Source of the DNA: Rubripirellula sp.
GTDB taxonomy: Bacteria; Planctomycetota; Planctomycetia; Pirellulales; Pirellulaceae
NCBI GenBank assembly: GCA_965216875.1
Contig: OZ244207.1
Location: forward strand, 5,664,001 to 5,728,000
Direction: 5' to 3'
Length of the DNA stretch: 64,000 nucleotides
The notes under the pieces are model-generated. The model searched no databases. It had not been told where the DNA came from and saw nothing but the letters and a program-made list of their open reading frames with translations. Below are positions 29,840-50,302 of this stretch, piece by piece; position 1 is the first letter of the stretch; each line of letters starts with the position of its first letter. The position numbers and the translations under genes are program-made.

Positions 29840-30319
29840 ATGAAATACTGTCAAATCGATCGAATCACATCGGTCCAACCCGGCCAAAAGCTGACTGCAA
29901 CCCGGACGCTCCACGAAGATGAGGAGTACCTCAAGGATCACTTTCCTAATTTTCCTGTCATGCCTGGCGTGATGATGCTTGAAGCGCTTCATCAAGCTGC
30001 CGTTTGGCTGGTCCGCATTACAGATAACTTCCAGAGCCCGCTGGTTTTGCTGCGGGAAGTTCGGAGTGTCAAATTTGGCGACTTTTTGGCTCCAGGAGAA
30101 ACCCTCGATTTGGTCGTCGAACAAATCAAAGTCAACGGCGACAAAACGACGATCAAAGCGACTGCGATGAAAGGCGACCGAGCCACCGTCTCGGCGAGAC
30201 TCATTCTCGAGAAGTGTGGAACCGGTGATCCCGAGCGACTCGGATCCGACGAAGAGATTCGCGGTCGGTGCGAAGACCAGTTCCGCGAACTGTTCGGTGA
30301 CATCGCCGTCACCAACTAA
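29840..30319 (+). CDS. FabA/FabZ-family 3-hydroxyacyl-ACP dehydratase (catalytic motif intact)
   Basis: IDRI, YLKDHFPNFPVMPGVMMLEAL, VKF...PGE. Confidence 0.88.
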   Translation: MKYCQIDRITSVQPGQKLTATRTLHEDEEYLKDHFPNFPVMPGVMMLEALHQAAVWLVRITDNFQSPLVLLREVRSVKFGDFLAPGETLDLVVEQIKVNGDKTTIKATAMKGDRATVSARLILEKCGTGDPERLGSDEEIRGRCEDQFRELFGDIAVTN

Positions 30320-30379
30320 CCATCCAATTTATCGAACAATCCACAACTCAACACAAACAAGAACAACTGAGGATTTCCA

Positions 30380-30769
30380 ATGGCACTTGCCAAAGATGAG
30401 ATTTTTGAAAAGGTCCGCGAAGCATTGGTCGACGCATTGGGAGTCGATGATGATGAAGTGAGCGAGGACGCAACGCTTGTTGGCGACCTGGGCGCCGAAT
30501 CAATCGACTTCCTGGACATCGTCTTCAAATTGGAAAAGGCATTCGACATCACCATTCCTCGTGAAGAGTTGTCGCCTGAAGACATTTTGACCAACAGCCA
30601 ATACGTCCAAGACGGCGTGGTCACTGACGAAGGCATGGCAGAACTGAAGCGACGTATGCCTTGGGCTGACCTGACCGAATTCGAAAAGAACCCACGCGTT
30701 CAAGACTTCGGCAACCTGTTGACCGTTGGCGACTTGTGCAGCTACGTCGGCAGCAAGGTTGGCGAATAG
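30380..30769 (+). CDS. Extended acyl carrier protein (AcpXL-like)
   Basis: DLGAESIDFLDIVFKLEKAFDITIP phosphopantetheine region; 129 aa with a long insert before TVGDL. Confidence 0.9.
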   Translation: MALAKDEIFEKVREALVDALGVDDDEVSEDATLVGDLGAESIDFLDIVFKLEKAFDITIPREELSPEDILTNSQYVQDGVVTDEGMAELKRRMPWADLTEFEKNPRVQDFGNLLTVGDLCSYVGSKVGE

Positions 30770-30845
30770 GCTTACCTTTGTTCATGATTCCAAACGCGCC
30801 GTAACATCGTTCGCGTTGCCCCCATTTGATAGGTAGAGCTGGCAC

Positions 30846-31352
30846 GTGCGTTGGCTATGGGTTGATCGATTCACCGAGTTTGTCAGTGGCTTTCATGCCC
30901 ATGGCACCAAGAACATTGCGCTCGATGAAGAGGTCGTTGACCACTACATCCCCGGCTATCCTGTTCTGCCGCCAACGTTGATTATCGAGGGTATGGCACA
31001 ACTGGGCGGGATTCTTGTCGCCGAGCATTTCGGTTTCGAAAAGAACGTCGTGCTGGCCAAAGTTGGAAAGGCCAAATATCACGCCCCAGCTCGCTGTGGG
31101 GATCAGCTCAAATACGAAGTCAAGCTGGACGCCGTGCAAGATCACGGCGCCACCGTCACGGGGACAAGTCACTGTGACGGGAAACTGCAGGCCGAGATTG
31201 ACCTGATGTTTGCCTTCCTTGAAGAGGGCCGTTTCACCGACGGTCCCCTTTTCCGGCATGGCGATCTACGATCCATGCTCAGGATGATGAACTTTTTCCA
31301 CGTCGCGGTCGATCAGGACGGCAACCCCGTTCCGATCTATCAAAACATTTGA
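30846..31352 (+). CDS. Second FabZ-like hot-dog protein (catalytic His altered or shifted)
   Basis: WLWVDRF, DHYIPGYPVLPPTLIIEGMAQ. Confidence 0.85.
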   Translation: MRWLWVDRFTEFVSGFHAHGTKNIALDEEVVDHYIPGYPVLPPTLIIEGMAQLGGILVAEHFGFEKNVVLAKVGKAKYHAPARCGDQLKYEVKLDAVQDHGATVTGTSHCDGKLQAEIDLMFAFLEEGRFTDGPLFRHGDLRSMLRMMNFFHVAVDQDGNPVPIYQNI

Positions 31353-31452
31353 TTCACAGCCCTCAATTCCTTGCCAACCACTTGGACCACGCGAACGAGA
31401 GCGATTCGGTCGACCCAAGAGGCAAGTCCACCCGCCAGCCAAGGCTATTCTG

Positions 31453-32736
31453 ATGCGTCGTCGTGTTGTCGTTACTGGGATCGGCATGATCAACCCAATG
31501 GGTCATGATCCGCAGACGGTGTGGGCAGGACTGAAAGAAGGCAAGAGCGGCGTTGCCAAAACAACGCTCTTCGACGCCAGTGGTTTTCCCACCAAGATCA
31601 GTGCCGAAGTCAAAAACTGGGACATCACCGACGCGGGTGAACCGGCCGACAGGTGGAAGTCACGTGGCCGGCACACCAAGTTTGCGGCCGGTGCTGCCAA
31701 ACAAGCCATCGAAAACAGCGGCGTCCTCGATTCCGTCTCCGACCCAACTCGCTTCGGTATCTACCTCGGCAGCGGCGAAGGCAACCAGGACTTCATGACC
31801 TTTAGCCGGATGATGGCGGAAGCTCTCAAGGGTGGTGAATACGAATCGTCCAAGTTCATCGCGGCCGGGCTGCAATACCTCGACCCTGCTGCTGAACTCG
31901 AGCAAGAACCGAACATGCCAGCGGCGCACCTGGCCACCATGTTCAACGCCCAGGGCCCCAACCTGAACTGCTTGACCGCGTGTGCCGCAAGTAGCCAAGC
32001 CGTTGGTGAAGCAACCGAAATCATTCGCCGCGGCGACGCCGACGTGATGCTTGCCGGTGGCACTCACAGCATGATTCATCCCTTTGGCGTGACCGGCTTT
32101 AACCTGCTGACAGCACTGAGCGAAAGCAACGACGAACCGACCAAAGCGAGTCGCCCCTTCGACCGATTGCGAGACGGATTCGTCTTGGGTGAAGGCTCGG
32201 CGATGGTGATTCTGGAAGAACTTGAAGCAGCCAAAGCACGCGGCGCGACGATCTATGGCGAAATCGCAGGCTACGGTACAACGGCCGATGCGTACCGAAT
32301 CACCGACATCCCACCGGACGGACACGGCGGTATCGCAGCGATGCGAATGTCGATTGCCGATGCGGGCTTGAACCCTTCCGACATTCAATACGTCAACGCT
32401 CACGGAACCAGCACGACCGTTAACGACAAAGTCGAATCGAAAGCGTGCAAAGAAGTTTTTGGTGACAACGCTACCAATGTTCCCGTCAGCAGTACGAAAA
32501 GCATGATGGGACACCTGATCGCAGCCGCCGGCGTGACCGAAATGATCGTCTGTTTGATGGCCATGCGTGACTCCGTCCTGCCACCAACGATTAACTACGA
32601 AAACCCCGATCCTGAATGCGATCTCGATTACGTGCCCAACGAAGCGCGTGACGCCGAGATTCAATACGCCCTCAACAACAGCTTTGGGTTCGGTGGACAA
32701 AACGTAACGCTTTGTTTGAGCCGCTTTGCTGGGTAG
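31453..32736 (+). CDS. fabF: Beta-ketoacyl-ACP synthase II (FabF-like)
   Basis: RRVVVTGIG, TACAASSQ, SRPFD..RDGFVLGEG, NAHGTST, KSMMGHL, NSFGFGGQN (Cys-His-His triad intact). Confidence 0.93.
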   Translation: MRRRVVVTGIGMINPMGHDPQTVWAGLKEGKSGVAKTTLFDASGFPTKISAEVKNWDITDAGEPADRWKSRGRHTKFAAGAAKQAIENSGVLDSVSDPTRFGIYLGSGEGNQDFMTFSRMMAEALKGGEYESSKFIAAGLQYLDPAAELEQEPNMPAAHLATMFNAQGPNLNCLTACAASSQAVGEATEIIRRGDADVMLAGGTHSMIHPFGVTGFNLLTALSESNDEPTKASRPFDRLRDGFVLGEGSAMVILEELEAAKARGATIYGEIAGYGTTADAYRITDIPPDGHGGIAAMRMSIADAGLNPSDIQYVNAHGTSTTVNDKVESKACKEVFGDNATNVPVSSTKSMMGHLIAAAGVTEMIVCLMAMRDSVLPPTINYENPDPECDLDYVPNEARDAEIQYALNNSFGFGGQNVTLCLSRFAG

Positions 32737-35212: not shown

Positions 35213-36475
35213 TTGCGGGTGGCGGAAAGCGAACAACTAGATGTAGTGATCGTTGGGGCGGGACTTGCCGGCTTATCATGCGCCATCGCCCTGAGCAAAG
35301 CCGGAAAGTCGGTAGCGATTCTCGAGGCATCCGACCGTGTGGGAGGCCGTGTGCGCAGCGATGTCGTGGACGGCTTTACGCTCGATCATGGTTTTCAAGT
35401 CCTGCTCACGGCCTACCCGGCTTGCGAAGAATTGCTCGACTACGATTCCCTTCGCCTGCGGCCATTCGCACCGGGCGCACTCGTTCGAAAAAACGGGGCC
35501 TTTGCTGTGCTCGCCGACCCGTGGCGATCACCTAGTCAGACCTTTGCCACTGCATTCAACTCGGTTGGCACATGGAAAGACAAACTGCTTGTCGCCAAAC
35601 TTCGCAGCGCCGTCCAATCTGGCAGTCTCGATAGCCTCTATCAAAACGAATCTACAACCACAAAGGAATTCCTCGCCCAGTTTGGTTTCTCGGAGCCCTT
35701 TGTCGAGCAGTTTTTCCGACCCTTCATCGGCGGCGTCTATCTTGATGAATCACTTGAAACATCGAGCCGAATGCTGAAATTCGTTTTTCGCATGTTCTCG
35801 GCCGGCGATGTGGCGGTTCCAGCCGAAGGAATGGGAGCGATACCGAGGCAATTGGCGGAACGTTTGCCGCGGGGAACCATCCGGTTGCAGTCGTCTGTGA
35901 CATCGATCGACGGCAACAGACTAACGCTTGCCGACGGCACGACCCTGGCGGCCAACTCGATTGTGATCGCAACCGAAAGTGGCACTGCGGCCCGGTTGTT
36001 GAAGCAAGAATCGATCGCGACCGAATGGAATCGAGCGACAACCTTTTACTACGCCGCCGACAGCGCGCCCGATGCCCGCAAGATGTTGGTACTTCGTGGT
36101 GACGAATCGGGGATCATTCAGACGGCAACCATCCTCAGCAACGTCGCACCCGAATATGCACCCACCGGCAAAGCACTTGTCTCGGTCAGCGTCTCCGGTC
36201 AAGCCGAGGTCGATATCGACGAAGCAGACAACCAGATCCGTGGCCAATTGAAATCCTGGTACGGTGATGCCGTCACGAGCTGGAAACGCCTGCGTGTCTA
36301 TGACATCCCCTTCGGTGTTCCCAATCGCGATCTTGAGCCAGTGATGTTGCCCATCGACGGACGATCAGTTGGATCCGACGCAAACACCTATCTGTGCGGC
36401 GACCATAGAGAAACGCCCAGCATTCAAGGCGCAATGAACAGTGGCCTTCGCGTAGCCAACGCGATTCTGCGCTAG
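35213..36475 (+). CDS. FAD-dependent oxidoreductase (flavin amine oxidase/phytoene-desaturase-like family)
   Basis: VGAGLAGL, EASDRVGGR, DHGFQVLLTAYP, SIQGAMNSG. Confidence 0.88.
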   Translation: MRVAESEQLDVVIVGAGLAGLSCAIALSKAGKSVAILEASDRVGGRVRSDVVDGFTLDHGFQVLLTAYPACEELLDYDSLRLRPFAPGALVRKNGAFAVLADPWRSPSQTFATAFNSVGTWKDKLLVAKLRSAVQSGSLDSLYQNESTTTKEFLAQFGFSEPFVEQFFRPFIGGVYLDESLETSSRMLKFVFRMFSAGDVAVPAEGMGAIPRQLAERLPRGTIRLQSSVTSIDGNRLTLADGTTLAANSIVIATESGTAARLLKQESIATEWNRATTFYYAADSAPDARKMLVLRGDESGIIQTATILSNVAPEYAPTGKALVSVSVSGQAEVDIDEADNQIRGQLKSWYGDAVTSWKRLRVYDIPFGVPNRDLEPVMLPIDGRSVGSDANTYLCGDHRETPSIQGAMNSGLRVANAILR

Positions 36476-37725
36476 TTGAAACTGCTGCCAAAGTTGTAGA
36501 CACCTGTGACGGGCACGACCCCGTAGACGCCATCAGTAAAGACTTGGCGAACAAAGTTGTTGAACAACTTGATCGGCGCACTTGGCAGGACAATGACATC
36601 ACCGTCGCGTATCCAAATCTCGTCGCACGGCTGAGCCTCACGTCCCAAGATCGCGCCTCGTACATCGAGCAACGTCGAGATCAACTCGAAGTTGTCACCA
36701 CGTCGAAAGACAACCACCTGGCGTAAGTTCGCGCCCACAACGTGGCCTCCGCCCATGGCGATCGCCCCCAGCACCGTTGTGGGAGTGTCCATGTCGTAGC
36801 GGCCAGGTTGCTTGACCTCGCCGAGAATATAGAAATGGTGCGGTGCTTCTTCGGCAAGCGAAGGTTCGACTTCCAGACCGCCCACGATTTCGTCGTATCG
36901 CAGATTGATCTCTTGCTTCAGTTCTTCGAGCGTCAGGCCCTGTGCTTGCACGCTACCGATTCGCGGCAGACGAATCTCGCCCGAGGGCGTGACGCGTTGG
37001 TCGGTCTGCTGGGGATCAAAGCCACCAACACCGCTGATGGCCTCGCGAATCTGGCGAGCAGCCGTTCCCGTGTTGACCGGCGTCACATCAATCGCCGGTT
37101 CAGGATAGAACTGTTTGTAGCGTCGTTCGAGCACTTCGCGTAATTGCTGGATTGTCTGGCCTGCGGCGTGAACTTGACCAATCAAACGCAATGTGATCGT
37201 TCCGTCGGGTTGAATCTTGAGCCCCTTCTCGAGCGTCCCCCGTGTCAGTTGCTCGTCGGCTTCCGATTCGATCAGCAATTCGTCTCCAACAACAAGACGA
37301 TAGCTGCCTTCCGTTTTCAAAGCGGTCAACAAAAAGGTGAGTTCGATCGTATCGCCGGTCCGCAATCGATATTCGGGAACGCGAAACGTTCGAGAGGGCC
37401 CTGCGTATTCGCCAGGCCCAAGCTGATCGAATGGCGAGTGATAGGGACACTGCCAGCATTGACAATCGTGGGGATGGTCAATCGGCCCAATACCGAGTTT
37501 CATCCCCGTGCCGCCAATCAAACCATCCCCGCTACGATTGACGCAGGTTCGATGATGCGCAAACGAATGCCCGTCTTGAACGTACGTCGGCGCGTTTTGC
37601 TGGACAACCGTTTCGCTGGTTTGAAAGGCGACGACAGGTTCGTCGCCGCGCGTTTGTTGCGACATCGTGAACGCGGCGACCAACAGCGCGAGTGTTCGAG
37701 TCCGATTGCGAAGACTTTCCAACAT
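36472..37725 (-). CDS. Polysaccharide export (OPX/Wza-like) protein with two PES-like domains and an SLBB domain
   Basis: YRLVVGDEL...IQPDGTITLRLIGQVHAAGQT; VTPSGEIRLPRIGSVQAQGLT; ILGEVKQPGRY; IRDGDVIVLP. Confidence 0.88.
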   Translation of the reverse strand: MLESLRNRTRTLALLVAAFTMSQQTRGDEPVVAFQTSETVVQQNAPTYVQDGHSFAHHRTCVNRSGDGLIGGTGMKLGIGPIDHPHDCQCWQCPYHSPFDQLGPGEYAGPSRTFRVPEYRLRTGDTIELTFLLTALKTEGSYRLVVGDELLIESEADEQLTRGTLEKGLKIQPDGTITLRLIGQVHAAGQTIQQLREVLERRYKQFYPEPAIDVTPVNTGTAARQIREAISGVGGFDPQQTDQRVTPSGEIRLPRIGSVQAQGLTLEELKQEINLRYDEIVGGLEVEPSLAEEAPHHFYILGEVKQPGRYDMDTPTTVLGAIAMGGGHVVGANLRQVVVFRRGDNFELISTLLDVRGAILGREAQPCDEIWIRDGDVIVLPSAPIKLFNNFVRQVFTDGVYGVVPVTGVYNFGSSFN

Positions 37726-37782
37726 GATGGTACGATGTGCTTTTTGAGGGGGTGATCGATAGGTTGTCCGTTTGGCGCAGCG

Positions 37783-37830
37783 TTGGCTACCGCCCGAATG
37801 AAAGCCTTGGCTACCGCCCGAACGAAAGCC
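37783..37830. repeat. 24-bp tandem duplication spanning the stop codon of the TPR gene
   Basis: ttggctaccgcccgaa(t/c)gaaagcc x2. Confidence 0.9.
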
Positions 37831-39853
37831 ATGACTTCGCTTTGCTGATCAGCGCGTTGGGTTTCTTTTTTAGCTTCTGCTTTTCGGTGACTGGAAGCCT
37901 GGTTTGTTTCGGCTGGATCGCAGGTTTGTGAACCTTTGTGGGTTGATGCGTTTTCGCGAACTGCTCGGGCGCCATTTGGTTGACCGGAATCACCGATTCC
38001 TGCTTGAGCTTTGCCAAAGCCTCAACGCATGACTTGGCGCCTTCGATGTCGTCGATTCGCAACGAGGCATCGAGCAACTGATGATAGGCGCGAGGCGTTG
38101 GCCGAACGGTGACACTCTGCTTAAGCATCTTGATCGCCGACTCAATCAGGCCCTGATTGAGGAGCGAGCTGCCGAGTTCTTGCAGTGCGGTCGCGTTGTC
38201 CGGAGCAACTTCCACTGCAGCTCGGTGCAGCGTCAATGCGACAGCGGCGGCGTGTGCATCCGAGTCGCCTGCGATTTTTTGCTCGACCTTGCCAAGCATC
38301 ACCAAAGCGTCGCTCGCTTCGCGGCTTCCGCCCGATGCGATGACAAGGTCTTTGCGAGCCTGCGCGAGGTAAAGTTCGGTCGCTCTCAGCGGTGCGAGCT
38401 TGCTAAGGTCGACGCCTTGCAACGCATCCGTTTCGTGGACAGCGACCATCCGTTTAAGTGCGGCGTTATTCACTGGCCCGAATCGTCCAGCAAAGTCCTC
38501 CGACTCACGAATCGCATTCAGAGCGGCATCAAGTTTTTGGCCGTGAACGGAGGAACTCGAGAGGGCATCGTGCATTGCGACGATACCGCGAAGCGATTGC
38601 AACGTCATTTTGCGAGCCGAATGATAGGCGCCTCGCTGGTACCGTTGGTGGGCACTATACAGCGATTGCCTCGCGAGTTCGCGTTGTCGTGTCGCGTGAA
38701 TCGTCGCCGTGACCACATCACCAGGCTCCGTCGTCGAACCTGCCGCGGGTAGGGCGTGTCGCGTCGGCTTTGGCTTCGAAACCGGCTGAGCCTTGACCCT
38801 GTTTGCGAGTGGCAGCTCCATCGTGACCGGTTCCCGCTTGTTGACGGCTGCGGGCTTGCTTGCGAATTCGGGCATCACCAACGTCGACGTTGGTCGGCTG
38901 GTCGCGATGTCGACGTTTGGATCGGCCGCATACGTTGGAACATGACTTTGCTTGGGTGCCAGCGTTTTCTCTTGCAACGTCGGGCCAGCTTGATCGCCAG
39001 CGACGTCCTCGATCATCCCCAGATCTGCCGCAAGTGCACCACCGATGGCCTTCGGAATTCTCGGCTGTGGTGTAGCGGTGACAGGTTTCACATCGTCAAG
39101 CGGTCGGATGTCGCCTCGCTGTTGGAGCGTCAAGCGTTGCACCTTCGGCGCTGCTGACGGCGCAGCCACTTCGCTGGCGTCGTTCGACTCAAGCCATCGC
39201 CGAGACTTTTCCCAGGAGGCGTGGGTATCCTGAGCGGCACGCGTAGGCCGATCCACATTCCGCTTCATGACGTCCGCGAAGCTGTCTTCGGCGGAAACAT
39301 CGACGTTCCCGACGGCCGAAGGCAAGCGAGCAGGTTGGCTCGGCTGGTCGACGACCAACACGCGAGGAAGGCGTTTGATCGTCGTGATCTCTCGCGACGG
39401 GGTTTGCTCGATGCCTCGCGACGGTTTTTGCTCAATGTCTCGCGACGTTTTTTGCTCGATTTCTCGCGACGGGGTCTGTTCCGGTTCCGCTGCTTGGACC
39501 TTTGGAGACTCGACCACTTGAGCGTCGTCGATCGGGACGATCTCTTGAGACTCAATCACGATCGGCTCGGGAACGATCACCTCGGGCACGGCTTTTAAGA
39601 TCGAGGGTTGATCATCATGTGGCGTCAGAACGCGGACCGACCGCTTGGGAGCTAATTTGCGGTGCAGTGGTTGCAATTCGGACCGCTGCCAACCTTGCGA
39701 CAGCATCGATCGCATTGGACTCGCGTTGACTTCAACATCCTTGTCATCAGCATCCAACGCGACTTGGCCAGCACAGACAATCGTTGCGGCAAGTGCGAGG
39801 CGTTTGGCCAACCGCGGGCGACGGCGAGACTCTTCCATGAGACAGCTTTGCAT
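37811..39853 (-). CDS. Exported protein with a long disordered N-region and a C-terminal TPR/helical domain
   Basis: Signal-like LALAATIVCAGQVALDA; TPR pattern AVEVAPDNATALQELGSSLLNQGLIESAIKMLKQSV. Confidence 0.75.
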   Translation of the reverse strand: MQSCLMEESRRRPRLAKRLALAATIVCAGQVALDADDKDVEVNASPMRSMLSQGWQRSELQPLHRKLAPKRSVRVLTPHDDQPSILKAVPEVIVPEPIVIESQEIVPIDDAQVVESPKVQAAEPEQTPSREIEQKTSRDIEQKPSRGIEQTPSREITTIKRLPRVLVVDQPSQPARLPSAVGNVDVSAEDSFADVMKRNVDRPTRAAQDTHASWEKSRRWLESNDASEVAAPSAAPKVQRLTLQQRGDIRPLDDVKPVTATPQPRIPKAIGGALAADLGMIEDVAGDQAGPTLQEKTLAPKQSHVPTYAADPNVDIATSRPTSTLVMPEFASKPAAVNKREPVTMELPLANRVKAQPVSKPKPTRHALPAAGSTTEPGDVVTATIHATRQRELARQSLYSAHQRYQRGAYHSARKMTLQSLRGIVAMHDALSSSSVHGQKLDAALNAIRESEDFAGRFGPVNNAALKRMVAVHETDALQGVDLSKLAPLRATELYLAQARKDLVIASGGSREASDALVMLGKVEQKIAGDSDAHAAAVALTLHRAAVEVAPDNATALQELGSSLLNQGLIESAIKMLKQSVTVRPTPRAYHQLLDASLRIDDIEGAKSCVEALAKLKQESVIPVNQMAPEQFAKTHQPTKVHKPAIQPKQTRLPVTEKQKLKKKPNALISKAKSWLSFGR
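39386..39481. repeat. Coding 24-bp x4 repeat (EQ.xSR.I) in the TPR protein
   Basis: EQTPSREI/EQKTSRDI/EQKPSRGI/EQTPSREI. Confidence 0.85.
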
Positions 39854-40285
39854 CGAGAAGGAATGGCGCGCCGCGTCCAGCAGCGCGCAACCTGAAATAT
39901 CCTGTCTCTTCGGATCGACGATCCCCGCGCACCAAGCTCACTGATTCAGATCGGATCGCGGTCGCATCGCGCAGACCGAAGATCAAAAGTGAAAAGACCG
40001 GCGAGGTTCCCGCAGCGATTACATTCCCGACCAGCGGGGTGACGGGCACAATCGCTACAGGCCGCAACCGGCGCGCTGCGAGTGTTTCACGGATCGTCTC
40101 GATCGAACTTTGACAATTAAATGGATCATCAGGGCGGTTTGAATCACCCCCCAGTGGTGAAACGACCGGTTTTGGTTGATCGCCAAAGGCGGGTGCATAG
40201 CGGCAACCTACAGTTCTGCGGAGGAATCTGCGTCCTCTCCCCACCACCGTTCCGTTGGTTGACTGCCAACAACAAGAACTGCTTC

Positions 40286-41947
40286 ATGAGCCAATCGCAG
40301 CCATCACCCGATTTTCCATCAATCGACGCCTCAACCGGGGCGTTTGAGCCGATGGCAATGTCGAGCAGCGACCCGGTGCTGGGCTACCCCGCAACCGAAC
40401 CGGCATCGATTGATCTCGGCCCCATCCCAAGCGGCGTGGGCGCGAAGCCATCAGCAAAATCAAAACCGGCCGAAACAAAGCCAAGCCGCAGCGGATCGAA
40501 GGCACCACCGATTCGTAAACCCGAAAAGCGATCGGGACCTCCACTTCCCAAGCGTCCGAAGGGTCGTCTCTTCATCGGCACCGTCTTCCTGGCAGTGATC
40601 GGATCGATCGGCTTTACGCTGTTTGATTCATTGCTTCGCTACACCGCATACGGCGAGGTAACGGGCCGCCGCTTAGAACTGGCTGTGCCTTGGCCCGGTG
40701 TCATCCAATCGATTCACGTTCGCGAAGGCGACCATGTTGAATTCGGTCAAGTGATCGCCACGATCGACAACTTTGAACTCAAGCAAAAGATCGAAGAGAT
40801 CGACGATTCACTTCGACTACAACGTGCACAGCTTTCGAGCGAGTTGGCGATGTTGCGTTGGGAGGCCGAAAAGATTCGTGACCTTCATAAACTGGCGCAA
40901 AGCGAGTTCTATGACAAATGGAGCGAATTGCTTTGGGAACAATCGCGATTGGCCGATTTACAAACCCAACTCAAACGGATCGAACCGATCTTACGCGAGG
41001 GTGCGGCCAGCAAAGAGCAGTACGATTCCCTTCAATTCCAAGTCGCTGGCCAAGAAAAACGCGTCGAACAACTGATCGAGGCGGTTCGAGCACTGAAGAA
41101 GCGAACCGATCAGTCGCCCGTCGAACTCGACATGGAAGACCGTATCCAACCGACACTGGCTCGAATCGAAAACCTGCAAGCCGAACTGCAGCGAACGCGA
41201 GACATGATCCAGCAGGGCGATATCCGAGCACCAGCTGGCGGTCGCGTTGTGCGAACTCACCGATTCGCGGGTGAATACGCCGAACCCACCACACCGGTTG
41301 TCGAACTGCTCGTCGACGGGTCAACCGAACTCGTCCTTTACTTGCCTCAATCGCGAGCTGAAGAGTTTCCGATCGGGCGAAGCGTGACGGTGAACGTCAA
41401 TCCAGCGAACACGAACGTTGCTTGCCAAGTTCACCGTGTCGCATTGGAAATGAAAAAGGCTCCCGAAAGCCTGGCTCGCTTTTACCAGAACGATGAAACC
41501 TTGTTGCCGGTCTACCTGCGCGTGACCGATTGGGGATCGACCGAAGGGGAACTGACCCTCGGCAGCCAACTTCGTTTGCCCCGCGCCGACAACGTGTCGG
41601 TGATTGCCAAACTGAAACGCTGGTGGACAGAAACCGCGCTGCCAAGTTTCACATCCGTTGATCACGCCTCCCAGGTGTTAGAACCGGAACCTTCGGTGCA
41701 AACCGTTTCCGAGCAAGAACCTGAGCACCATCCAGCCGATACTGAACAAAGCGAAATCGATGGGCGCACTGCTGGATGGATTCGAGAGTTTCAGAAAGCC
41801 GAACAACGGCGTATGAACCCCGCCCGCCAAGCTCGTGCCATGCCCGTGACCACTTGCGTCTTATCAGCGCCCGTGATTTGTTCGACGGTTGAATATGAAT
41901 CCATCTCCCAACGGAAATCTGAATCCGGAACTGTCTCCGCCAATTGA
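40286..41947 (+). CDS. HlyD/membrane-fusion-family protein
   Basis: One TM helix, lipoyl-like halves VPWPGVIQSIHVREGDHV and IRAPAGGRVV around an alpha-hairpin; start uncertain. Confidence 0.88.
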   Translation: MSQSQPSPDFPSIDASTGAFEPMAMSSSDPVLGYPATEPASIDLGPIPSGVGAKPSAKSKPAETKPSRSGSKAPPIRKPEKRSGPPLPKRPKGRLFIGTVFLAVIGSIGFTLFDSLLRYTAYGEVTGRRLELAVPWPGVIQSIHVREGDHVEFGQVIATIDNFELKQKIEEIDDSLRLQRAQLSSELAMLRWEAEKIRDLHKLAQSEFYDKWSELLWEQSRLADLQTQLKRIEPILREGAASKEQYDSLQFQVAGQEKRVEQLIEAVRALKKRTDQSPVELDMEDRIQPTLARIENLQAELQRTRDMIQQGDIRAPAGGRVVRTHRFAGEYAEPTTPVVELLVDGSTELVLYLPQSRAEEFPIGRSVTVNVNPANTNVACQVHRVALEMKKAPESLARFYQNDETLLPVYLRVTDWGSTEGELTLGSQLRLPRADNVSVIAKLKRWWTETALPSFTSVDHASQVLEPEPSVQTVSEQEPEHHPADTEQSEIDGRTAGWIREFQKAEQRRMNPARQARAMPVTTCVLSAPVICSTVEYESISQRKSESGTVSAN

Positions 41948-42788
41948 TGGTGGTGATCCGATTCCGTTGGATGATCTGATGGATCGGCGTCAGCTGAATC
42001 GGCGCGAATCAACGCGTCCGATCGCGGTGGTCCCGGTCTTGCTTGACGGTGGTCCCGGCGAACTTCAGTGGGCCGAGGCTATCACCGAAGATGTCTCAGC
42101 GACCGGCCTCTCGCTACGGATGCAAAGTCAATCGACGCTTCCATGCCGCAATGTGGTGGTGGGCGCCGAGTCCGCCGCGGGTGGACGTGCCTTCGGCACA
42201 CTTCAAATTGTTTCGCAGACTCAATCCGACGACGGTGTCTTGCGAATCGGCGGCAAATGGGTGATCGGATCCTCTGAAGACATTCTCGTCCCCGACAAGC
42301 TCCGTCCACGCGTGGACCCCCGCACGTTGTCGTTTGTGTACGGATGGTCCGAAGAAACGCTCAAGAAATGGACGCGGCTGGGCGTGCTTCGCCAATACCT
42401 CGTCGACCGAGTGCTGCTGTGCGATCGTTGCGGATCGATTCCGTCTTGGCGAAATGGATGCCACGTTTGTGGTTCGGGCCGGATCCATCGCGACCGCCTG
42501 ATTCATCACTTCGCCTGTGCTCACGTCGATCGAGCCGCCGACTTCGAAACCGCCGATGGACTGCAATGTCCCAAATGCCGAACGAACAATTTGATCGTTG
42601 GGTCGGACTACGAGTTCATCGAAGGTCCCGTTGAATGCTACGACTGTGGCGCCCGCGGCGGGCAACCCACGATGGCGGCGATGTGCCACCGATGCCACCA
42701 CCGCTTCAGCATGGAAGAAGCAGAAGAACGCATGTTGTACGCCTACCACGTCGAGCGTCTCGACCCGGTTACCTTCTACGCATCCTAG
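41895..42788 (+). CDS. PilZ-like domain fused to a multi-zinc-ribbon (TackOD1-like) domain
   Basis: RQLNR and EDVSATG PilZ motifs; CDRC, CHVC, HHFACAH, CPKC, CYDC, CHRC. Confidence 0.75.
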   Translation: MNPSPNGNLNPELSPPIDGGDPIPLDDLMDRRQLNRRESTRPIAVVPVLLDGGPGELQWAEAITEDVSATGLSLRMQSQSTLPCRNVVVGAESAAGGRAFGTLQIVSQTQSDDGVLRIGGKWVIGSSEDILVPDKLRPRVDPRTLSFVYGWSEETLKKWTRLGVLRQYLVDRVLLCDRCGSIPSWRNGCHVCGSGRIHRDRLIHHFACAHVDRAADFETADGLQCPKCRTNNLIVGSDYEFIEGPVECYDCGARGGQPTMAAMCHRCHHRFSMEEAEERMLYAYHVERLDPVTFYAS

Positions 42789-42803
42789 CCACGAGCATCC
42801 GCC

Positions 42804-44087
42804 ATGATTTCGGATTGGCTGCGCTGGTTAACGCAGTTGCAGACCGCTGAATTGCTCTGGCTTCTGGCGCCCATTCTCTTGCTCGATGCGCCGCGGTACG
42901 CTCTGGGAACGCTCACACTTTGGTTGTGGGACTTTCTCGAAGACACCTACAAATCAATTCGCGGTGAAGACGAAGTCCGTCCCTTCAGTCACCAACCGCG
43001 TTGCTGCGCGATCGTCGCCGGATTGAACGAAGCCGATTCACTTGGCCAGACACTCGATTCGCTTGCCGGCTCCTATCCAGACCTGCAAATCGTGGTGGTC
43101 GACGATGGAAGCACCGATGGCATGTCCGAAGTTGCGTGTGAGTTCGCCAAGACGCATTCGAAGACAACGGTCGTTCGCAAACCGGCGCGCGGTGGTAAAA
43201 GCAGCGCGCTCAACGCTGCCCTTCCCTTCACCGACGCCGAGATTCTGGTCTGTGTCGACAGCGACTCGCACTTGGGCGATGGTGCCGTCTGGGAAATCGT
43301 GCAACCCTTTGTCGACCCCAACGTGGCCGCGGTCAGTGGTACGGTGCTTGTTCGCAAACCCTTTATCAATTTGCTGACTTGGATCCAGGCCCTTGAGTAT
43401 TACCGCTGCATCTTTCTCGGTCGCATGTTCACCAGCCGACTGGGAATCCTAGGGATTGTTTCGGGCGCCTTTGGTGCTTACCGTCGCGAAGCAATCTTGC
43501 AGGTGGGCGCTTGGGATGTCGGTCCGGGAGAAGATGGTGACTTGACGTTGCGGTTGCGTCGCTCGGGCTACGACGTCGTCTTCGCCCCCTATGCCCAATG
43601 CTTTACCAATCCAGTCCAACAGATGGGTCGTTTGTCCAAACAGCGGCGTCGCTGGGAATGGGCTGTCATCACGTTGGAATGTCGCAAGCACATCGAAATG
43701 GCGAACCCGTTTCGAGCCGACTTTCGCTTCAGCAATTTCGTGATGCTGGTCGACCGATGGCTTTACAGCGTCGTGCTTCAATACGCCTTCTTGGGGTACA
43801 TGTTCTGGTACCTCTTTCACATCCATGCCTTCGCCCACTATCAGCTCATGCTGTTCTATGTGGTTTACCTTGGCATGGAAATCCTGCAACTGATGATCTT
43901 GTTGTACTACTGTGACAACAAGCGACGTGTGATGATGATCGGTGCGGTCTTTCCGCTGATGCCCTTCTACTACATCTGGATGCGATTCGTGACGCTGTGG
44001 GCAATCACCGAAGAATTGCTGACGCGACGAAGCTACAAAGACAACTTTGTTCCCGAACACGTTCGCAACGTGACGTGGCACTGGTAA
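42804..44087 (+). CDS. Processive GT2 polysaccharide synthase (PgaC/IcaA/HasA-like)
   Basis: DDGSTD, GGKSSALN, DSD, SGAFGAYR, GEDGDLT, QRRRW; one N-terminal and several C-terminal TM helices. Confidence 0.9.
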   Translation: MISDWLRWLTQLQTAELLWLLAPILLLDAPRYALGTLTLWLWDFLEDTYKSIRGEDEVRPFSHQPRCCAIVAGLNEADSLGQTLDSLAGSYPDLQIVVVDDGSTDGMSEVACEFAKTHSKTTVVRKPARGGKSSALNAALPFTDAEILVCVDSDSHLGDGAVWEIVQPFVDPNVAAVSGTVLVRKPFINLLTWIQALEYYRCIFLGRMFTSRLGILGIVSGAFGAYRREAILQVGAWDVGPGEDGDLTLRLRRSGYDVVFAPYAQCFTNPVQQMGRLSKQRRRWEWAVITLECRKHIEMANPFRADFRFSNFVMLVDRWLYSVVLQYAFLGYMFWYLFHIHAFAHYQLMLFYVVYLGMEILQLMILLYYCDNKRRVMMIGAVFPLMPFYYIWMRFVTLWAITEELLTRRSYKDNFVPEHVRNVTWHW

Positions 44088-46000: not shown

Positions 46001-46456
46001 TTAGGCGGTCACCAAATCGTCGCTGGCGATGTCGAATGCATCGATGGTTGGATCGTGTCGATGCACCAAGCTCGCACCAATCTCGTAGCACTTGCTTGTG
46101 ATCCGTCTTGCTCGCACGACGTGCAATTGCACCCAGAACGTAGGCAGGACAATCCGCACACTTTCTTCGGGATAGATCTCGAAGGGTGTCAGAAAGCCGC
46201 AACCGTGCCGTGAAAAGTCGCGGGTGTAGATTCCCACCGCCTTGTCGCCGCGTGACAGAAACGGCAGGCAGTCGTCGAACCACATCACACCGTGGGTACG
46301 CACCTTCAAACGCTGGTTGTTACGTTCATCTTCGACGAACGAAGGAACTTCACCACGCTCCTCGAAATAGTCAGACCATTCGACCGGCAATTCGATGTCG
46401 AAGCCGATCGATTGGATCAGTTCGCCAAATCGCGTTGAATAATCGACTTCCAGCAT
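46001..46456 (-). CDS. Stand-alone PilZ-domain protein
   Basis: RNNQR (RxxxR) and DFSRHG (DxSxxG). Confidence 0.85.
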   Translation of the reverse strand: MLEVDYSTRFGELIQSIGFDIELPVEWSDYFEERGEVPSFVEDERNNQRLKVRTHGVMWFDDCLPFLSRGDKAVGIYTRDFSRHGCGFLTPFEIYPEESVRIVLPTFWVQLHVVRARRITSKCYEIGASLVHRHDPTIDAFDIASDDLVTA

Positions 46457-47373
46457 TGGAACATCTCCGGATCAAAAGCAGTCCCACAGTCACGTTGCTG
46501 AAGCGTCAGTGCTTTGCTTCGCGGCATCGGGGTGCGGTAAGGTCGGTGGCTTGTAAGCGCTTCGAAAACATCAACGATCGCGCAGATTTTGGCCCAAGGG
46601 TGGATATCGTCGTCAACACAACCGACGGGATAACCTTTGCCATCAAGTCGCTCGTGGTGCTGGTAGGCCATCATCAGTTGGCCTTCATTCAGGTCGACGC
46701 GATGCGCCATCTTGCGAAAGCCGAGCAAGGGATGCGTGCGAATCGTTCGGAATTCCCATTCGTCCAAACGTCCGGGTTTGCACAGGATTCTCTCGTCGAT
46801 ATCCAGCTTGCCCAAATCGTGAAGCAAGCCGCCAGTGGTGATTTGTTCGATTTCGGTGCGATCGAATCCTAAGCCGGCTCCCAACATGCCACAGTAAAAG
46901 GCGACATTGGCTGAGTGGGTAAAGGTTGCGTAATCATGATGCAACACTTGAAACAGGTCGCCGGCGGCGAATTCGTCTTTGGTGACGATATCAGCTGCGA
47001 GCAGACCCAGTTTTTCGGCAGCCGAAACCGTTTCGTCCACATCATTGTTGTGGAAGGCGGACTGCAGCACATCGCGAACAACCTCATTGAGTGCACCGGC
47101 GCGAGCGGCGAGAGGAATTGATGTGTTGTCCGTTCCAATCGCAATGCGGCGCAAGTACTTCTGATAAAGCGATCGCGACTCTTGCGAGATATAGAGGCGA
47201 TGGATTCCTCTGGAACGCAAGCGATCCAAGTCATCCAAGGTGATTGGATATTCTTCGCCTCGATAGAGAACCAACCGTTCCGAGTCAGCCTCCTGCTGAT
47301 ACAGATTCAGCCCCACTGCTTCCGTGGGAAGCAGCGTTGCGACGCTGATCGGGATGAAATCGACTCCGGACAT
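46417..47373 (-). CDS. HD-GYP c-di-GMP phosphodiesterase
   Basis: THSANVA, LLHDLGK, THPLLG, HHERLDGKGYP, DVFEAL..RPYR. Confidence 0.92.
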   Translation of the reverse strand: MSGVDFIPISVATLLPTEAVGLNLYQQEADSERLVLYRGEEYPITLDDLDRLRSRGIHRLYISQESRSLYQKYLRRIAIGTDNTSIPLAARAGALNEVVRDVLQSAFHNNDVDETVSAAEKLGLLAADIVTKDEFAAGDLFQVLHHDYATFTHSANVAFYCGMLGAGLGFDRTEIEQITTGGLLHDLGKLDIDERILCKPGRLDEWEFRTIRTHPLLGFRKMAHRVDLNEGQLMMAYQHHERLDGKGYPVGCVDDDIHPWAKICAIVDVFEALTSHRPYRTPMPRSKALTLQQRDCGTAFDPEMFQCWKSIIQRDLAN

Positions 47374-47601
47374 GGTCGTGTTAGGGCAAGTTGTTGGGCG
47401 GGGGACGTTCTTATGGGGGGCGACAATCGGATGTCCCTGGAGAAATCTAGTGCGCAGGGGAGCACGTGCCACCAAGAAATGGGTGAAACGCGCACTGTTG
47501 TGAGAGTGTGAGTGCGCAAGAGAAAGTGCTGGCCCAAATTGGCCAGCACTGTCGTTACAGCCGTTACAGATAGAAGGAAATTGCCGACGGGGTATCGTCA
47601 A

Positions 47602-48663
47602 TTACACGGCGCCGATGCCCAGTTTTTTTTCCTCGGCAGCGATCATTTGCGAGATAATGTCCTGCAAATCGACGCGAATGTCCCACTCGGGATAGTGCGA
47701 GCGGAGTTTTCCGAGATCACTGATGTAGCAGATGTGGTCGCCCTTTCGATTGTCATCCGACAGGGTGAAGTCGACCTTGTGCCCCCCGATCTCTTCGATC
47801 ATCGAAATACACTCGAGAACGCTGGCAGCATTCTGACGCCCGCCGCCAATGTTGTAGACCTCGCCGGGGCGAGGATCGCCGGCAAAGGCTTCGAACGCTT
47901 TGACCACGTCGCTACATTCGATTTGGTCGCGAACCTGCTTGCCTTTGTAGCCAAAGATCGTGTACGGCTTGCCTGCGACGGCGACATGGACCAAGTAACT
48001 CAGAAATCCATGCAATTCAACGCCGCTATGACTCGCCCCCGTCAAACAGCCGCCACGGAATACGCCTGTCTTGAGACCGAAGTACTTGCCGTACTCTTGA
48101 GCCACGATGTCGGCTGCGGTTTTTGATGCTCCGAAAAGCGAATGCATCGTCTGGTCGATGCGGCACGACTCGTCGATGCCTTCGAAATCTTCGTCACGCG
48201 AATATTCCCAACGCGTCTCCAGCTCATCCAGCGGCAGCTCATTCGGTGCGTCACCGTAAACCTTGTTCGTGCTCATGTGACAGAACACGGCGTCGGGAGC
48301 ATGCTGACGCGTCGCTTCGAGCAGATTCAGCGTGCCGTTCGCATTGACTTCGAAATCAAGGAACGGGATCGCCGCTGCCTTATCGTGCGAGGGCTGCGCG
48401 GCACAGTGAATGATCAAATCGGGCGTTTCATTCTTGAACAGATCAAAGATGCGTTCGCGGTCGCGAATATCGATGGACTCTGTACGAAAGTGATTCGTTT
48501 CCGATTCCAATCGAGACTGATTCCATTGAGTGCTTCCGTCGGGACCAAAGAAGGTGGCTCGCATATCGTTATCGATACCGATCACCTCGTCGCCCAGAGC
48601 ATCCCAATGTCGAACCGCCGCGGATCCAATCAAACCGCTGGATCCCGTAACAATCACACGCAT
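47602..48663 (-). CDS. NAD-dependent sugar epimerase/dehydratase (CDP-paratose 2-epimerase-like)
   Basis: TGSSGLIG, HCAAQPS, STNKVYG, SLFGASK, GKQVRD, YNIGGG. Confidence 0.88.
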   Translation of the reverse strand: MRVIVTGSSGLIGSAAVRHWDALGDEVIGIDNDMRATFFGPDGSTQWNQSRLESETNHFRTESIDIRDRERIFDLFKNETPDLIIHCAAQPSHDKAAAIPFLDFEVNANGTLNLLEATRQHAPDAVFCHMSTNKVYGDAPNELPLDELETRWEYSRDEDFEGIDESCRIDQTMHSLFGASKTAADIVAQEYGKYFGLKTGVFRGGCLTGASHSGVELHGFLSYLVHVAVAGKPYTIFGYKGKQVRDQIECSDVVKAFEAFAGDPRPGEVYNIGGGRQNAASVLECISMIEEIGGHKVDFTLSDDNRKGDHICYISDLGKLRSHYPEWDIRVDLQDIISQMIAAEEKKLGIGAV

Positions 48664-48724
48664 CGATTTCTATCTACCAACAAATGCCAAGTTGTCAATC
48701 AAGTTGTTCATTCAAGTGGCGAGG

Positions 48725-50059
48725 CTATGCCGTCACCGATGTATCTTCGCCGGCCCCCACGGGACGACCAATGCTGTAGTACACAAACCCCTGATCCACC
48801 ATGCGATCGGGTTCATACAAGTTGCGTCCGTCAAAGATGACGTGCCCGTTCATACGCGTACGCATCTCGCTGAAGTCGGGATTGTGATACACCTTCCATT
48901 CGGTGTTGATCGCCAAGGCATCGGCACCGTTTAGAGCGTCCATTGCCGATTCGCAATAGATCAGCTGATTCCCGTAGATTTCGCGGATATTCTCGATCGC
49001 TTCGGGGTCATGCACCTGTGGAACAGCGCCCTTTTCGAGCAAGTAGTTCAAAAGCGTCAACGCGGGTGCTTCGCGGATGTCATCCGTTCGCGGCTTGAAA
49101 GCGAGGCCCCAAATGGAGACTCGTTTCCCGGCGAGGTTCCCGTCAAAGTGTCGGTCAACCTTTTCAACCAGTACTTTCTTTTGCTCGCGGTTGACATCGT
49201 CAACGGCGTCCATGATTCGTGGCGAGAGACCCAAGTCGCGTGCCATGCTCGCCAATGCGCGAACGTCTTTGGGGAAACAGCTTCCACCGTAGCCAACACC
49301 AGGAAACAAGAAAGCGAAACCGATACGTTGGTCGTGTCCGATACCGCGACGCACATCATTGATGTCGCCGCCCATACGCTCACAAAGGTTCGCCATCTCG
49401 TTGATGAAAGAGATCTTTGTACTCAGCAACGCGTTGGCAACGTACTTGGTCAGTTCTGCTGACTGAGGGCTCATCGACAAGAACGGTTTGTCGGTTCGCA
49501 AGAAGGGACGATACAGCTCGTGTAAAACATCGGCGACTTCTTGACGCCGCACGCCGACCACCACTCGGTCGGGCTTCATGAAATCTTCGATCGCCGCGCC
49601 TTCCTTCAAGAACTCAGGATTGCTTGCGACGTCCACATCGCGATTGAGCGTTTCTCGCAGCCGATCAAAAATCCACTGATTCGTTCCAACCGGCACGGTG
49701 CTCTTGGTGACGACGATTGCATCGTCCGTCAAATGAGGTGCCATCGAATCGACAACCGCTTTGAGCGCGGTTAGGTCGGCCGATCCGTCATCCGAAGGAG
49801 GTGTGCCGACCGCCAAGTAGATGATGCGCGACGAACTCACCGCCTCGGCCAAATCGGTCGTGAAGGTCAGTTGGCCGTTTTCACTGTTGCGAAGCACCAG
49901 CTCCTTAAGACCAGGCTCGTAAATCGGAATCACACCTTGCCGCAGGCCATTGATTTTGGCTTCGTCGATATCGACACACGCAACGTCGTTACCGCTGTCA
50001 GCGAAACAGGTACCAGTCACCAGCCCAACATAGCCGGTTCCGATCATCGCGATTTTCAT
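48725..50059 (-). CDS. ugd: UDP-glucose 6-dehydrogenase
   Basis: [56 protein letters not shown]. Confidence 0.95.
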
Positions 50060-50302
50060 TTGATTCTCACCTTTGACATACCAACTGAGGTATTTGCTCT
50101 TTCGTGACCTTGATTGTAGTTCGGTAGGGGGTGAGTCATACCTTCGCTGCAGCGGATTCACCATCCTGCAGCCAACGGCGTCACCCAAGCCGTAAAACCG
50201 GAATCAATGCTATTGTCGATACGACAGTCTAGCCAGCCAGGTCATCCTGGCGGCTGGAGTTAGGGAACGCGGATTTCGCAGTCACGGCCCGCAATTCGAC
50301 GA

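What the first reader, a model, noticed from the sequence alone, without database searches (positions are those of the whole stretch)
36472..44087. Candidate undescribed c-di-GMP-gated exopolysaccharide machine: OPX and TPR divergent from HlyD, PilZ-Zn and a processive GT2
Seen: a divergent five-gene locus. The right arm is tightly coupled (HlyD/MFP overlapping PilZ-Zn ribbon, then 15 nt to a GT2 with D,D,D,QRRRW). The left arm encodes a TPR protein and a Wza-like exporter. No Wzx, Wzy, Wzc, ABC transporter or beta-barrel gene is present. Established: alginate uses GT2 Alg8, Alg44 (PilZ fused to an MFP domain), TPR AlgK and a barrel, whereas OPX proteins normally serve Wzy or ABC pathways. Inference: a hybrid synthase-dependent system with the Alg44 domains split over two genes and an OPX conduit. 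It could make a holdfast or biofilm polymer (PNAG-, chitin- or hyaluronan-like).
Basis: partly seen in the sequence, partly recalled or inferred. Interest (0 to 1): 0.85.

Follow-up and report, generated by a model that had tools for sequence, protein, structure and literature searches.

The report
PilZ-switched Mxd-type polysaccharide synthase module
Three adjacent genes form a module related to the Shewanella Mxd biofilm system that likely makes and exports a surface sugar polymer when the messenger c-di-GMP binds a predicted PilZ sensor, while the two neighbouring exporter-type genes belong to a separate, widespread planctomycete gene pair.

Summary
All five genes are real, but they form two units, not one machine. 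The right arm (MFP, PilZ–zinc-ribbon, GT2) is conserved: near 55 relatives of the regulator, a GT2 lies in 52 loci, an MFP in 49, an OPX in 2 and the TPR partner in 1. The TPR–OPX pair is a separate Pirellulales module (OPX family in 43 of 61 genomes, regulator in 8 of 61). Two relatives keep the same locus without the triad.

The 'Zn ribbon' is Pfam TackOD1. Shewanella TackOD1 proteins carry MxdA's published NVDEF motif, and the GT2 falls in one clade (100/99) with their GT2. The triad is therefore likely an MxdABC-type synthase.

What is new is the input domain: PilZ replaces MxdA's degenerate GGDEF (both c-di-GMP motifs in 46 of 72 homologs; PilZ fold by structure search). Where relatives encode an outer-membrane exit nearby, it is TolC-like. 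Binding, activity and polymer chemistry are untested. The scan noted Mxd-like TackOD1 operons before on other DNA, without PilZ. Verdict: new variant of a known kind; the OPX-hybrid reading is not supported.

The parts
40286..41947 (+). Membrane-fusion protein (HlyD-type periplasmic adaptor), MxdC-like. One TM helix. The ORF is open from 40121; the start at 40286 is inferred.
   Evidence: Pfam HlyD_3 E 1.5e-9; TM helix; 25% identity, E 2e-7, to the MFP of Shewanella-type locus L137; MFP in 49 of 55 related loci
41889..42788 (+). PilZ-TackOD1 regulator, counterpart of MxdA
   Evidence: TackOD1 E 3.5e-29; model pLDDT 92; top structural hit BcsA PilZ, Z 9.8, rmsd 2.1 A, 87 aligned; 26% over 141 aa, E 1e-9, to NVDEF-bearing P0281
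41988..42002 (+). PilZ RxxxR motif (RQLNR)
   Evidence: kept in 53 of 72 aligned homologs
42090..42107 (+). PilZ D/NxSxxG motif (DVSATG)
   Evidence: kept in 50 of 72; both motifs in 46 of 72
42348..42752 (+). TackOD1 multi-zinc-ribbon domain (five CxxC plus HHFAC)
   Evidence: 11 Cys invariant in 72 rows
42804..44087 (+). Processive-type GT2 synthase of the MxdB clade (D,D,D,QRRRW)
   Evidence: motifs; 30-row clade 100/99; model pLDDT 92.5; best TM-score to hyaluronan synthases, TMq about 0.7
37811..39853 (-). TPR protein, partner of the OPX. Neighbour, not part of the triad.
   Evidence: beside the OPX in 17 of 20 fetched OPX loci by tblastn and 20 of 20 by a profile built from these loci; in 1 of 55 triad loci
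36472..37725 (-). OPX (2x Poly_export + SLBB, C-terminal amphipathic helix). Member of a widespread Pirellulales TPR-OPX pair; neighbour, not part of the triad.

Best explanation
The genes at 40286-44087 encode an MFP, a PilZ-TackOD1 protein and a GT2 that are conserved together, and they likely form an Mxd-type synthase in which c-di-GMP bound by the predicted PilZ domain would switch on the GT2 to make a surface polysaccharide that would leave through the MFP and a TolC-type channel encoded elsewhere. Shown: the three genes stay together across Planctomycetota, Alpha- and Gammaproteobacteria and Bacteroidota. The GT2s beside TackOD1 genes form one clade. The input domain on TackOD1 varies: PilZ, REC-PilZ, REC-REC-PilZ, REC alone, or a degenerate GGDEF. 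Inferred: TackOD1 is the part that contacts and gates the GT2; the PilZ binds c-di-GMP; export goes through the MFP and TolC, as proposed for BgsBA; the triad moved in beside a resident TPR-OPX pair in the ancestor of G000 and G002. The polymer is unknown. A GlcNAc-containing chain is my weak preference (about 45%).
For: Synteny: GT2 in 52 of 55 and MFP in 49 of 55 loci. In 17 further TackOD1 places from a 301-genome phylum sample: clade GT2 12, MFP 11, TolC-like 6, OPX 0. The same triad is on alpha- and gammaproteobacterial plasmid records. Mxd link: PMC13713693 says MxdA has an NVDEF motif and acts through MxdB; 3 of 120 TackOD1 hits carry NVDEF, one of them named Shewanella; L137 has the order TackOD1 protein, GT2, MFP, small ORF, which fits the mxdABCD description in PMC3691769. 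Tree: 30-row clade at 100/99, all rows TackOD1-linked. PilZ: motifs and fold. A CBS-GGDEF cyclase gene sits inside the operon in PilZ-less L068. TolC-like genes lie in 10 of 55 loci. The own genome has 14 GGDEF matches and 19 OEP matches in about 12 genes. TolC is needed for the GT2+MFP system BgsBA (abstract of PMC13438883).
Against: No binding, activity or expression data. The MR-1 mxd sequences were not retrieved by name, so the identification rests on a motif and on gene order. Window-to-Shewanella identities are low (GT2 28%, MFP 25%, TackOD1 26%). 26 of 72 homologs lack one or both PilZ motifs. 45 of 55 loci show no TolC gene nearby, and those that do are clustered kin. The window has no mxdD-like gene, hydrolase or TolC. 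One locus (L037) has MFP and regulator but no GT2 within 10 kb, and haloarchaeal plasmid TackOD1 has no annotated GT2 neighbour. The best-scoring Foldseek rows for the GT2 are PcManGT, a mannosyltransferase that I recall is not a polymer synthase.
Confidence: 0.7

Rival explanations
1. One reading: the five genes are one machine and the OPX-TPR pair is the outer-membrane conduit of the GT2 product, at least in this lineage.
For: The adjacency is kept in two species (G000, G002). The window has no TolC or barrel gene. The OPX has a C-terminal amphipathic helix like a self-made pore. This OPX copy has no Wzc neighbour.
Against: OPX in 2 of 55 loci, one of them an unrelated short OPX, and in 0 of 17 further places. 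The orthologous OPX copy in G016 and G025 (both 99% complete) exists with no TackOD1 or clade GT2 found in the genome. G001 and G025 keep the same gene order without the triad. The OPX family is found in 5 of 8 triad genomes and 38 of 53 others.
Confidence: 0.08
2. The triad is a synthase module, but the PilZ is a relic or a protein-contact domain, and control comes from phosphorylation (REC) or zinc/redox sensing by TackOD1.
For: Many homologs carry REC domains. 26 of 72 have lost a motif. Some lack PilZ altogether (L067, L068, L070).
Against: The window protein has both motifs and no REC domain. The motifs are kept in 46 of 72 homologs, whose overall identity to the window protein runs from 28 to 88%. 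MxdA is reported to bind c-di-GMP (PMC7666153 passages).
Confidence: 0.12
3. The GT2 is not a polymer synthase but glycosylates a lipid or a secreted protein, and the MFP serves a type I-like secretion step.
For: The GT2 is short (427 aa) with few TM helices. Its top PDB hit is PcManGT. No modifying or hydrolase gene lies in the window.
Against: QxxRW is invariant in 77 rows. Its whole-length fold is closest to hyaluronan synthases. No ABC transporter or cargo gene is co-conserved. mxd mutants lose biofilm structure and aggregation.
Confidence: 0.1

Closest known systems
Shewanella oneidensis MxdABCD (PMC3691769, PMC7666153, PMC13713693; passages read)
   Same: TackOD1 regulator, GT2 of the same clade, and MFP in one operon; c-di-GMP input on the regulator (reported for MxdA, predicted here).
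   Different: PilZ N-terminal to TackOD1 instead of a C-terminal degenerate GGDEF (NVDEF); TackOD1 match lacks profile positions 1-51; gene order is MFP-regulator-GT2; no mxdD-like ORF; 25-28% identity.
Rhizobial BgsBA mixed-linkage glucan system (PMC13438883, abstract read)
   Same: GT2 plus MFP, c-di-GMP-controlled, with a TolC encoded outside the operon as the required exit. This is the model for how the triad would export.
   Different: The BgsA-like GT2 groups with BcsA, outside the clade. It is 669 aa long and has no TackOD1 partner in the stretch fetched.
Alginate Alg8/Alg44/AlgK/AlgE (recalled)
   Same: GT2, PilZ and MFP functions together.
   Different: PilZ is fused to TackOD1, not to the MFP; the TPR gene is not co-conserved; no barrel, epimerase or acetylation genes in the locus.
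PNAG synthases PgaC/IcaA
   Same: Similar size; nearest NCBIfam model (E 3e-39); near the clade in the tree.
   Different: 135 bits against a cut-off of 422; separate clade; no PgaD, PgaB or PgaA-type genes co-conserved.
OPX proteins of Wzx/Wzy and ABC pathways (PMC9603273; passages read)
   Same: The left-arm protein has Poly_export and SLBB domains and a Wza-like C-terminal amphipathic helix.
   Different: Two Poly_export domains; no Cys in the first 60 residues; fixed TPR partner (fused in L116); no conserved Wzc or Wzy neighbours in 20 loci.

Membership tests
Mxd-type synthase (mxdABCD) | TackOD1-containing regulator (MxdA) | tested here: met
   MxdA identified indirectly by the NVDEF motif
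Mxd-type synthase (mxdABCD) | GT2 of the MxdB clade | tested here: met
   100/99 clade including L137 and L139
Mxd-type synthase (mxdABCD) | Adjacent membrane-fusion protein (MxdC) | tested here: met
   (E 2e-7, family level only)
Mxd-type synthase (mxdABCD) | Degenerate GGDEF (NVDEF) domain on the regulator | tested here: not met
   no GGDEF hit; PilZ instead. Hence a variant that works like Mxd, not mxdABCD itself.
Mxd-type synthase (mxdABCD) | Small fourth gene mxdD | tested here: not met
   149 nt between the GT2 and hemB; also absent from several gammaproteobacterial loci
Mxd-type synthase (mxdABCD) | Needed for biofilm structure or aggregation | not testable with these tools
   needs knockouts
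PilZ c-di-GMP receptors | RxxxR and D/NxSxxG motifs | tested here: met
PilZ c-di-GMP receptors | Six-stranded PilZ barrel fold | tested here: met
   top six rows are PilZ proteins, Z 8.0-9.8; Foldseek alone gave no E <= 0.001
PilZ c-di-GMP receptors | Binds c-di-GMP | not testable with these tools
   needs a binding assay
Alginate system | PilZ fused to MFP (Alg44) | tested here: not met
Alginate system | Co-conserved TPR scaffold and barrel (AlgK/AlgE) | tested here: not met
   TPR partner in 1 of 55 loci; no barrel family among co-conserved ORF clusters checked
Alginate system | GT2 in the Alg8 clade | not tested
   no Alg8 sequence was fetched
PgaC/IcaA PNAG synthase | TIGR03937 cut-off and clade | tested here: not met
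BgsBA MLG system | BgsA-clade GT2 | tested here: not met
   the BgsA label rests on a recalled position in an unannotated record
Class 1 OPX (Wza-like) | Poly_export + SLBB domains | tested here: met
Class 1 OPX (Wza-like) | C-terminal outer-membrane helix (Wza_C) | tested here: inconclusive
   no Pfam Wza_C hit; the highest hydrophobic moment of the protein, 0.53, is at aa 380-397, and this stretch is conserved
Class 1 OPX (Wza-like) | Partner Wzc/Wzy cluster | tested here: inconclusive
   none adjacent; three Wzc genes lie elsewhere in the genome; pairing not testable

The most novel reading that the evidence does not exclude
The triad reached this lineage without a TolC gene of its own and was kept beside the resident TPR-OPX pair because it co-opted that pair as its exit. 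This would be a synthase-dependent polysaccharide leaving through an OPX pore, gated by a free-standing PilZ-TackOD1 subunit.
Probability: 0.08. Interest if true: 0.8.

Novelty: new variant of a known kind. Interest (0 to 1): 0.5.

Why it matters
The Mxd system is genetically known, but its mechanism and polymer were not described in the papers I could see, and TackOD1 is published as function-unknown (PMC5847659). Here TackOD1 travels with one GT2 clade and an MFP across several phyla while its sensor is swapped: degenerate GGDEF, REC, or PilZ. That points to TackOD1 as the gating subunit. The 299-aa PilZ-TackOD1 protein is a small version with canonical c-di-GMP motifs, so gating can be tested directly with point mutants. 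It also names a candidate c-di-GMP-controlled surface polymer in planctomycetes. Separately, the widespread TPR-OPX pair with no conserved sugar genes beside it is an open lead.

Tried and rejected
Five-gene co-conservation: tested and rejected.

Flanking PilZ, HD-GYP, epimerase and Ugd genes (46001-50188) as parts of the system: rejected, because G001 keeps them at the same locus without the triad.

A TolC label for the ~700-aa neighbour in L024, L025 and L047: rejected; Pfam gives a weak CBM30 only, and the TolC there is another gene.

A scan of metagenome contigs with a published mxd promoter primer found 0 matches, so the MR-1 locus was not retrieved. The cluster-member look-up that could have named the NVDEF proteins could not be made.

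The GT2-regulator complex prediction never ran because the queue was full; there is no verdict on binding.

No RNA holder listed for the locus. The promoter scan gave 2 sites against 1.3 expected, both inside the GT2 gene. G+C of the triad (56.4%) equals the genome's (56.3%), so there is no compositional sign of recent transfer.

A pSymB stretch fetched for ApsS held no long QxxRW ORF. No BBP2 barrel (PF10082) was found in the own genome.

Paper searches: 'TackOD1' 1 paper; 'Thaumarchaeal output domain' 0; mxd searches and planctomycete searches listed no paper whose title or abstract start links TackOD1, PilZ or planctomycetes to Mxd. The library lacks most subscription papers.
Full report
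Observation. The five ORFs are as described. Pfam and NCBIfam give OPX (Poly_export twice, SLBB), a weak TPR, a HlyD-type MFP, a protein with TackOD1 (E 3.5e-29) and weak PilZ (E 0.042), and a GT2. The GT2 follows the regulator after 15 nt and carries DDGS, DSD, GEDGD and QRRRW. The genome is a complete 8.26-Mb planctomycete. The closest titled loci are Pirellulaceae, the nearest (L023) titled Rubripirellula sp.. The triad is single-copy in the genome.

The two arms are separate units. A GTDB scan with the regulator confirmed 55 loci out of 120 candidate stretches. Within about 10 kb, tblastn found the GT2 in 52, the MFP in 43, and the OPX and TPR in 1 each. Profile searches raised this to MFP 49, OPX 2 and TolC-like 10 of 55, with the TPR partner still 1. 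The second OPX is an unrelated 235-aa protein. Many contigs are short, but 35 loci have at least 4 kb upstream of the MFP, enough to see a divergent TPR gene. As a further test, TackOD1 passed its cut-off in 17 of 301 Planctomycetota genomes (only 10 candidates per genome were scored). I fetched all 17 places outside the own genome: clade GT2 in 12 (one cut by a contig end), MFP 11, TolC-like 6, hydrolase-like 7, OPX 0; one place matched none of my profiles.

The OPX has its own history. Among 61 relatives the regulator occurs in 8 and this OPX family in 43: 5 of 8 triad genomes and 38 of 53 others. The three triad genomes without it have other Poly_export genes, one possibly a fragment of this family. 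I fetched 20 of the 53 OPX places. The window's TPR protein hit the neighbouring gene in 17 of them. A profile built from these same loci hit 20 of 20, and one is a TPR-OPX fusion. The window's copy groups with copies in G002, G016 and G025, apart from a second paralog present in the own genome (23 rows, quick tree). G025 and G001 keep the order oxidase, OPX, TPR, ThuA-family gene, hemB with no triad; G002 has the triad between TPR and that ThuA-family gene. Neither TackOD1 nor a clade GT2 was found in G001 (84% complete), G016, G025, G012 or G030 (the same family search rang in G000). One insertion in the ancestor of G000 and G002 is the simplest reading (inference); independent losses are not excluded.

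What the triad is. On plasmid records, TackOD1 genes sit directly before a GT2 of about 420-440 aa and a HlyD-type gene in Roseibium, Methylocystis (with TolC), Phyllobacterium, Palleronia, Alisedimentitalea, Photobacterium and Plesiomonas. A haloarchaeal TackOD1 lacks such annotated neighbours. I fetched 7 of the 14 records and 2 more. The Photobacterium regulator is TackOD1 plus a weak GGDEF. PMC13713693 (passages) states that Shewanella MxdA has an NVDEF motif, is a c-di-GMP receptor and acts through the glycosyltransferase MxdB. PMC3691769 (passages) describes MxdB as a membrane GT2, MxdC as efflux-pump-like, and mxd mutants as defective in aggregation and biofilm. PMC7666153 (passages) calls MxdA a c-di-GMP-binding protein that interacts with CheY3. 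Of 120 listed homologs of the Photobacterium protein, 3 carry NVDEF. Two of these are 462 aa, which matches my recollection of MxdA's length, and one is named Shewanella. Locus L137 (75% to P0284) reads TackOD1 protein, GT2, MFP, 129-aa ORF. The MR-1 sequence itself was not retrieved, so this identification is indirect.

GT2 phylogeny. In a 39-row tree the window's GT2 lies in a 30-row clade (100/99) with L137 and all TackOD1-linked GT2s. The one unlabelled row in it (L158) proved to have TackOD1 and HlyD neighbours. PgaC, IcaA, BcsA, an XrtG-associated GT, a BgsA-like and a NodC-like protein fall outside; the last two labels rest on recalled positions in unannotated records. Alg8 and HasA were not in the tree. 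The top-ranked plasmid hits of the GT2 are records that also hold TackOD1. The model (pLDDT 92.5) has its best TM-scores to hyaluronan synthases (about 0.7) and its best E-values to PcManGT.

The sensor. In 72 aligned PilZ-type homologs RxxxR is kept in 53, D/NxS/GxxG in 50 and both in 46 (one search used the wrong register and is superseded). The model (pLDDT 92) matches PilZ domains in the top six VIA-align rows (Z 8.0-9.8; best BcsA PilZ), with flavin-reductase barrels close behind at Z about 7. Foldseek gave no match at E <= 0.001. Among 30 of 56 regulators scanned, the architectures were PilZ-TackOD1, REC-PilZ-TackOD1, REC-REC-PilZ-TackOD1, REC-TackOD1, and TackOD1-GGDEF with or without REC. 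In PilZ-less L068 a CBS-GGDEF gene sits between regulator and GT2. TackOD1 is the constant part. PMC5847659 (passages; supplementary Fig. S7 and Table S5 not seen) calls its function obscure.

How it likely works. Inferred steps: c-di-GMP binds the PilZ domain; TackOD1 relays this to the GT2; the GT2 polymerises a UDP-sugar and, with help from the MFP's membrane helix, passes the chain to the periplasm; the MFP guides it to a TolC-type channel. TolC-like genes neighbour the triad in 10 of 55 and 6 of 17 places, often fused to a TIM-barrel domain. The own genome has about 12 OEP genes and 14 GGDEF matches. The abstract of PMC13438883 shows that TolC is required for the GT2+MFP system BgsBA. The polymer is open. 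The hydrolase-like neighbour (10 of 55 loci, absent from the own genome) has an FDGxxxDxEP motif, GH18-like atlas neighbours at 0.89, a lead only, and one PDB hit labelled putative GH97 (E 7.5e-10). Epimerase and UDP-glucose dehydrogenase genes follow the triad in L027 and L037.

Comparison and verdict. It works like Mxd and, for export, like BgsBA. It is not mxdABCD proper (no GGDEF domain, no mxdD), not alginate and not PNAG. Two earlier notes of this scan reached an Mxd reading for other TackOD1 operons. I had written that idea down before seeing them and tested it here. I found no paper on a PilZ-TackOD1 or planctomycete Mxd system in searches. Thormann 2006, Rakshe 2011 and Gambari 2019 were not read and are known to me only through citing passages; they or their supplements may already note MxdA's cysteine domain or its homologs. 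Verdict: new variant of a known kind, interest 0.5; OPX hybrid about 8%.

Noticed in passing
window 36472-39853; G000:C1:2083798-2086458; L108-L127: A TPR gene followed by an OPX with two Poly_export domains is widespread in Pirellulales (OPX family in 43 of 61 genomes), fused in G055 (L116), duplicated in some Pirellulaceae, and has no conserved Wzc, Wzy or GT neighbours. Its cargo and partner are unexplained.
   Followed up: partly
L127:9042-12156 (G001): The orthologous OPX copy matches query residues 66-185 and 261-398 only, in separate frames, so it looks broken or mis-assembled in this same-genus genome that lacks the triad.
   Followed up: no
L024:12079-14274, L025:11995-14331, L047:4622-6673, L071:6570-9629, L074:11058-14123: A GH-like TIM-barrel domain (FDGxxxDxEP) occurs beside the triad, either behind a CBM30-like domain or fused to TolC. 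It is the best handle on the polymer's chemistry.
   Followed up: partly
window 46001-50188: A stand-alone PilZ gene, an HD-GYP gene, an NAD-dependent epimerase and UDP-glucose dehydrogenase lie on the minus strand. They are also present in G001, which lacks the triad.
   Followed up: partly
L042:6645-7934 and 9560-10801: Two REC-bearing TackOD1 regulators flank one MFP-GT2 pair.
   Followed up: no
L158:5830-8421: A Sinorhizobium medicae plasmid has clade GT2, HlyD and a stand-alone 109-aa partial TackOD1, a minimal version with no sensor domain.
   Followed up: partly
P0175-P0234: TackOD1-GGDEF proteins annotated as 'diguanylate cyclase' are common in Vibrio parahaemolyticus, V. alginolyticus, V. 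cholerae and Aliivibrio fischeri; they are probably MxdA homologs and not active cyclases.
   Followed up: no
window 29840-32736: A FabZ-like / ACP / FabZ-like / FabF-like cluster lies upstream of the locus and is kept in G001 and G025 (labels read from the translations, not scanned).
   Followed up: no
L037:8547-13374: MFP and PilZ-TackOD1 are followed directly by epimerase and Ugd genes, with no GT2 within 10 kb.
   Followed up: no
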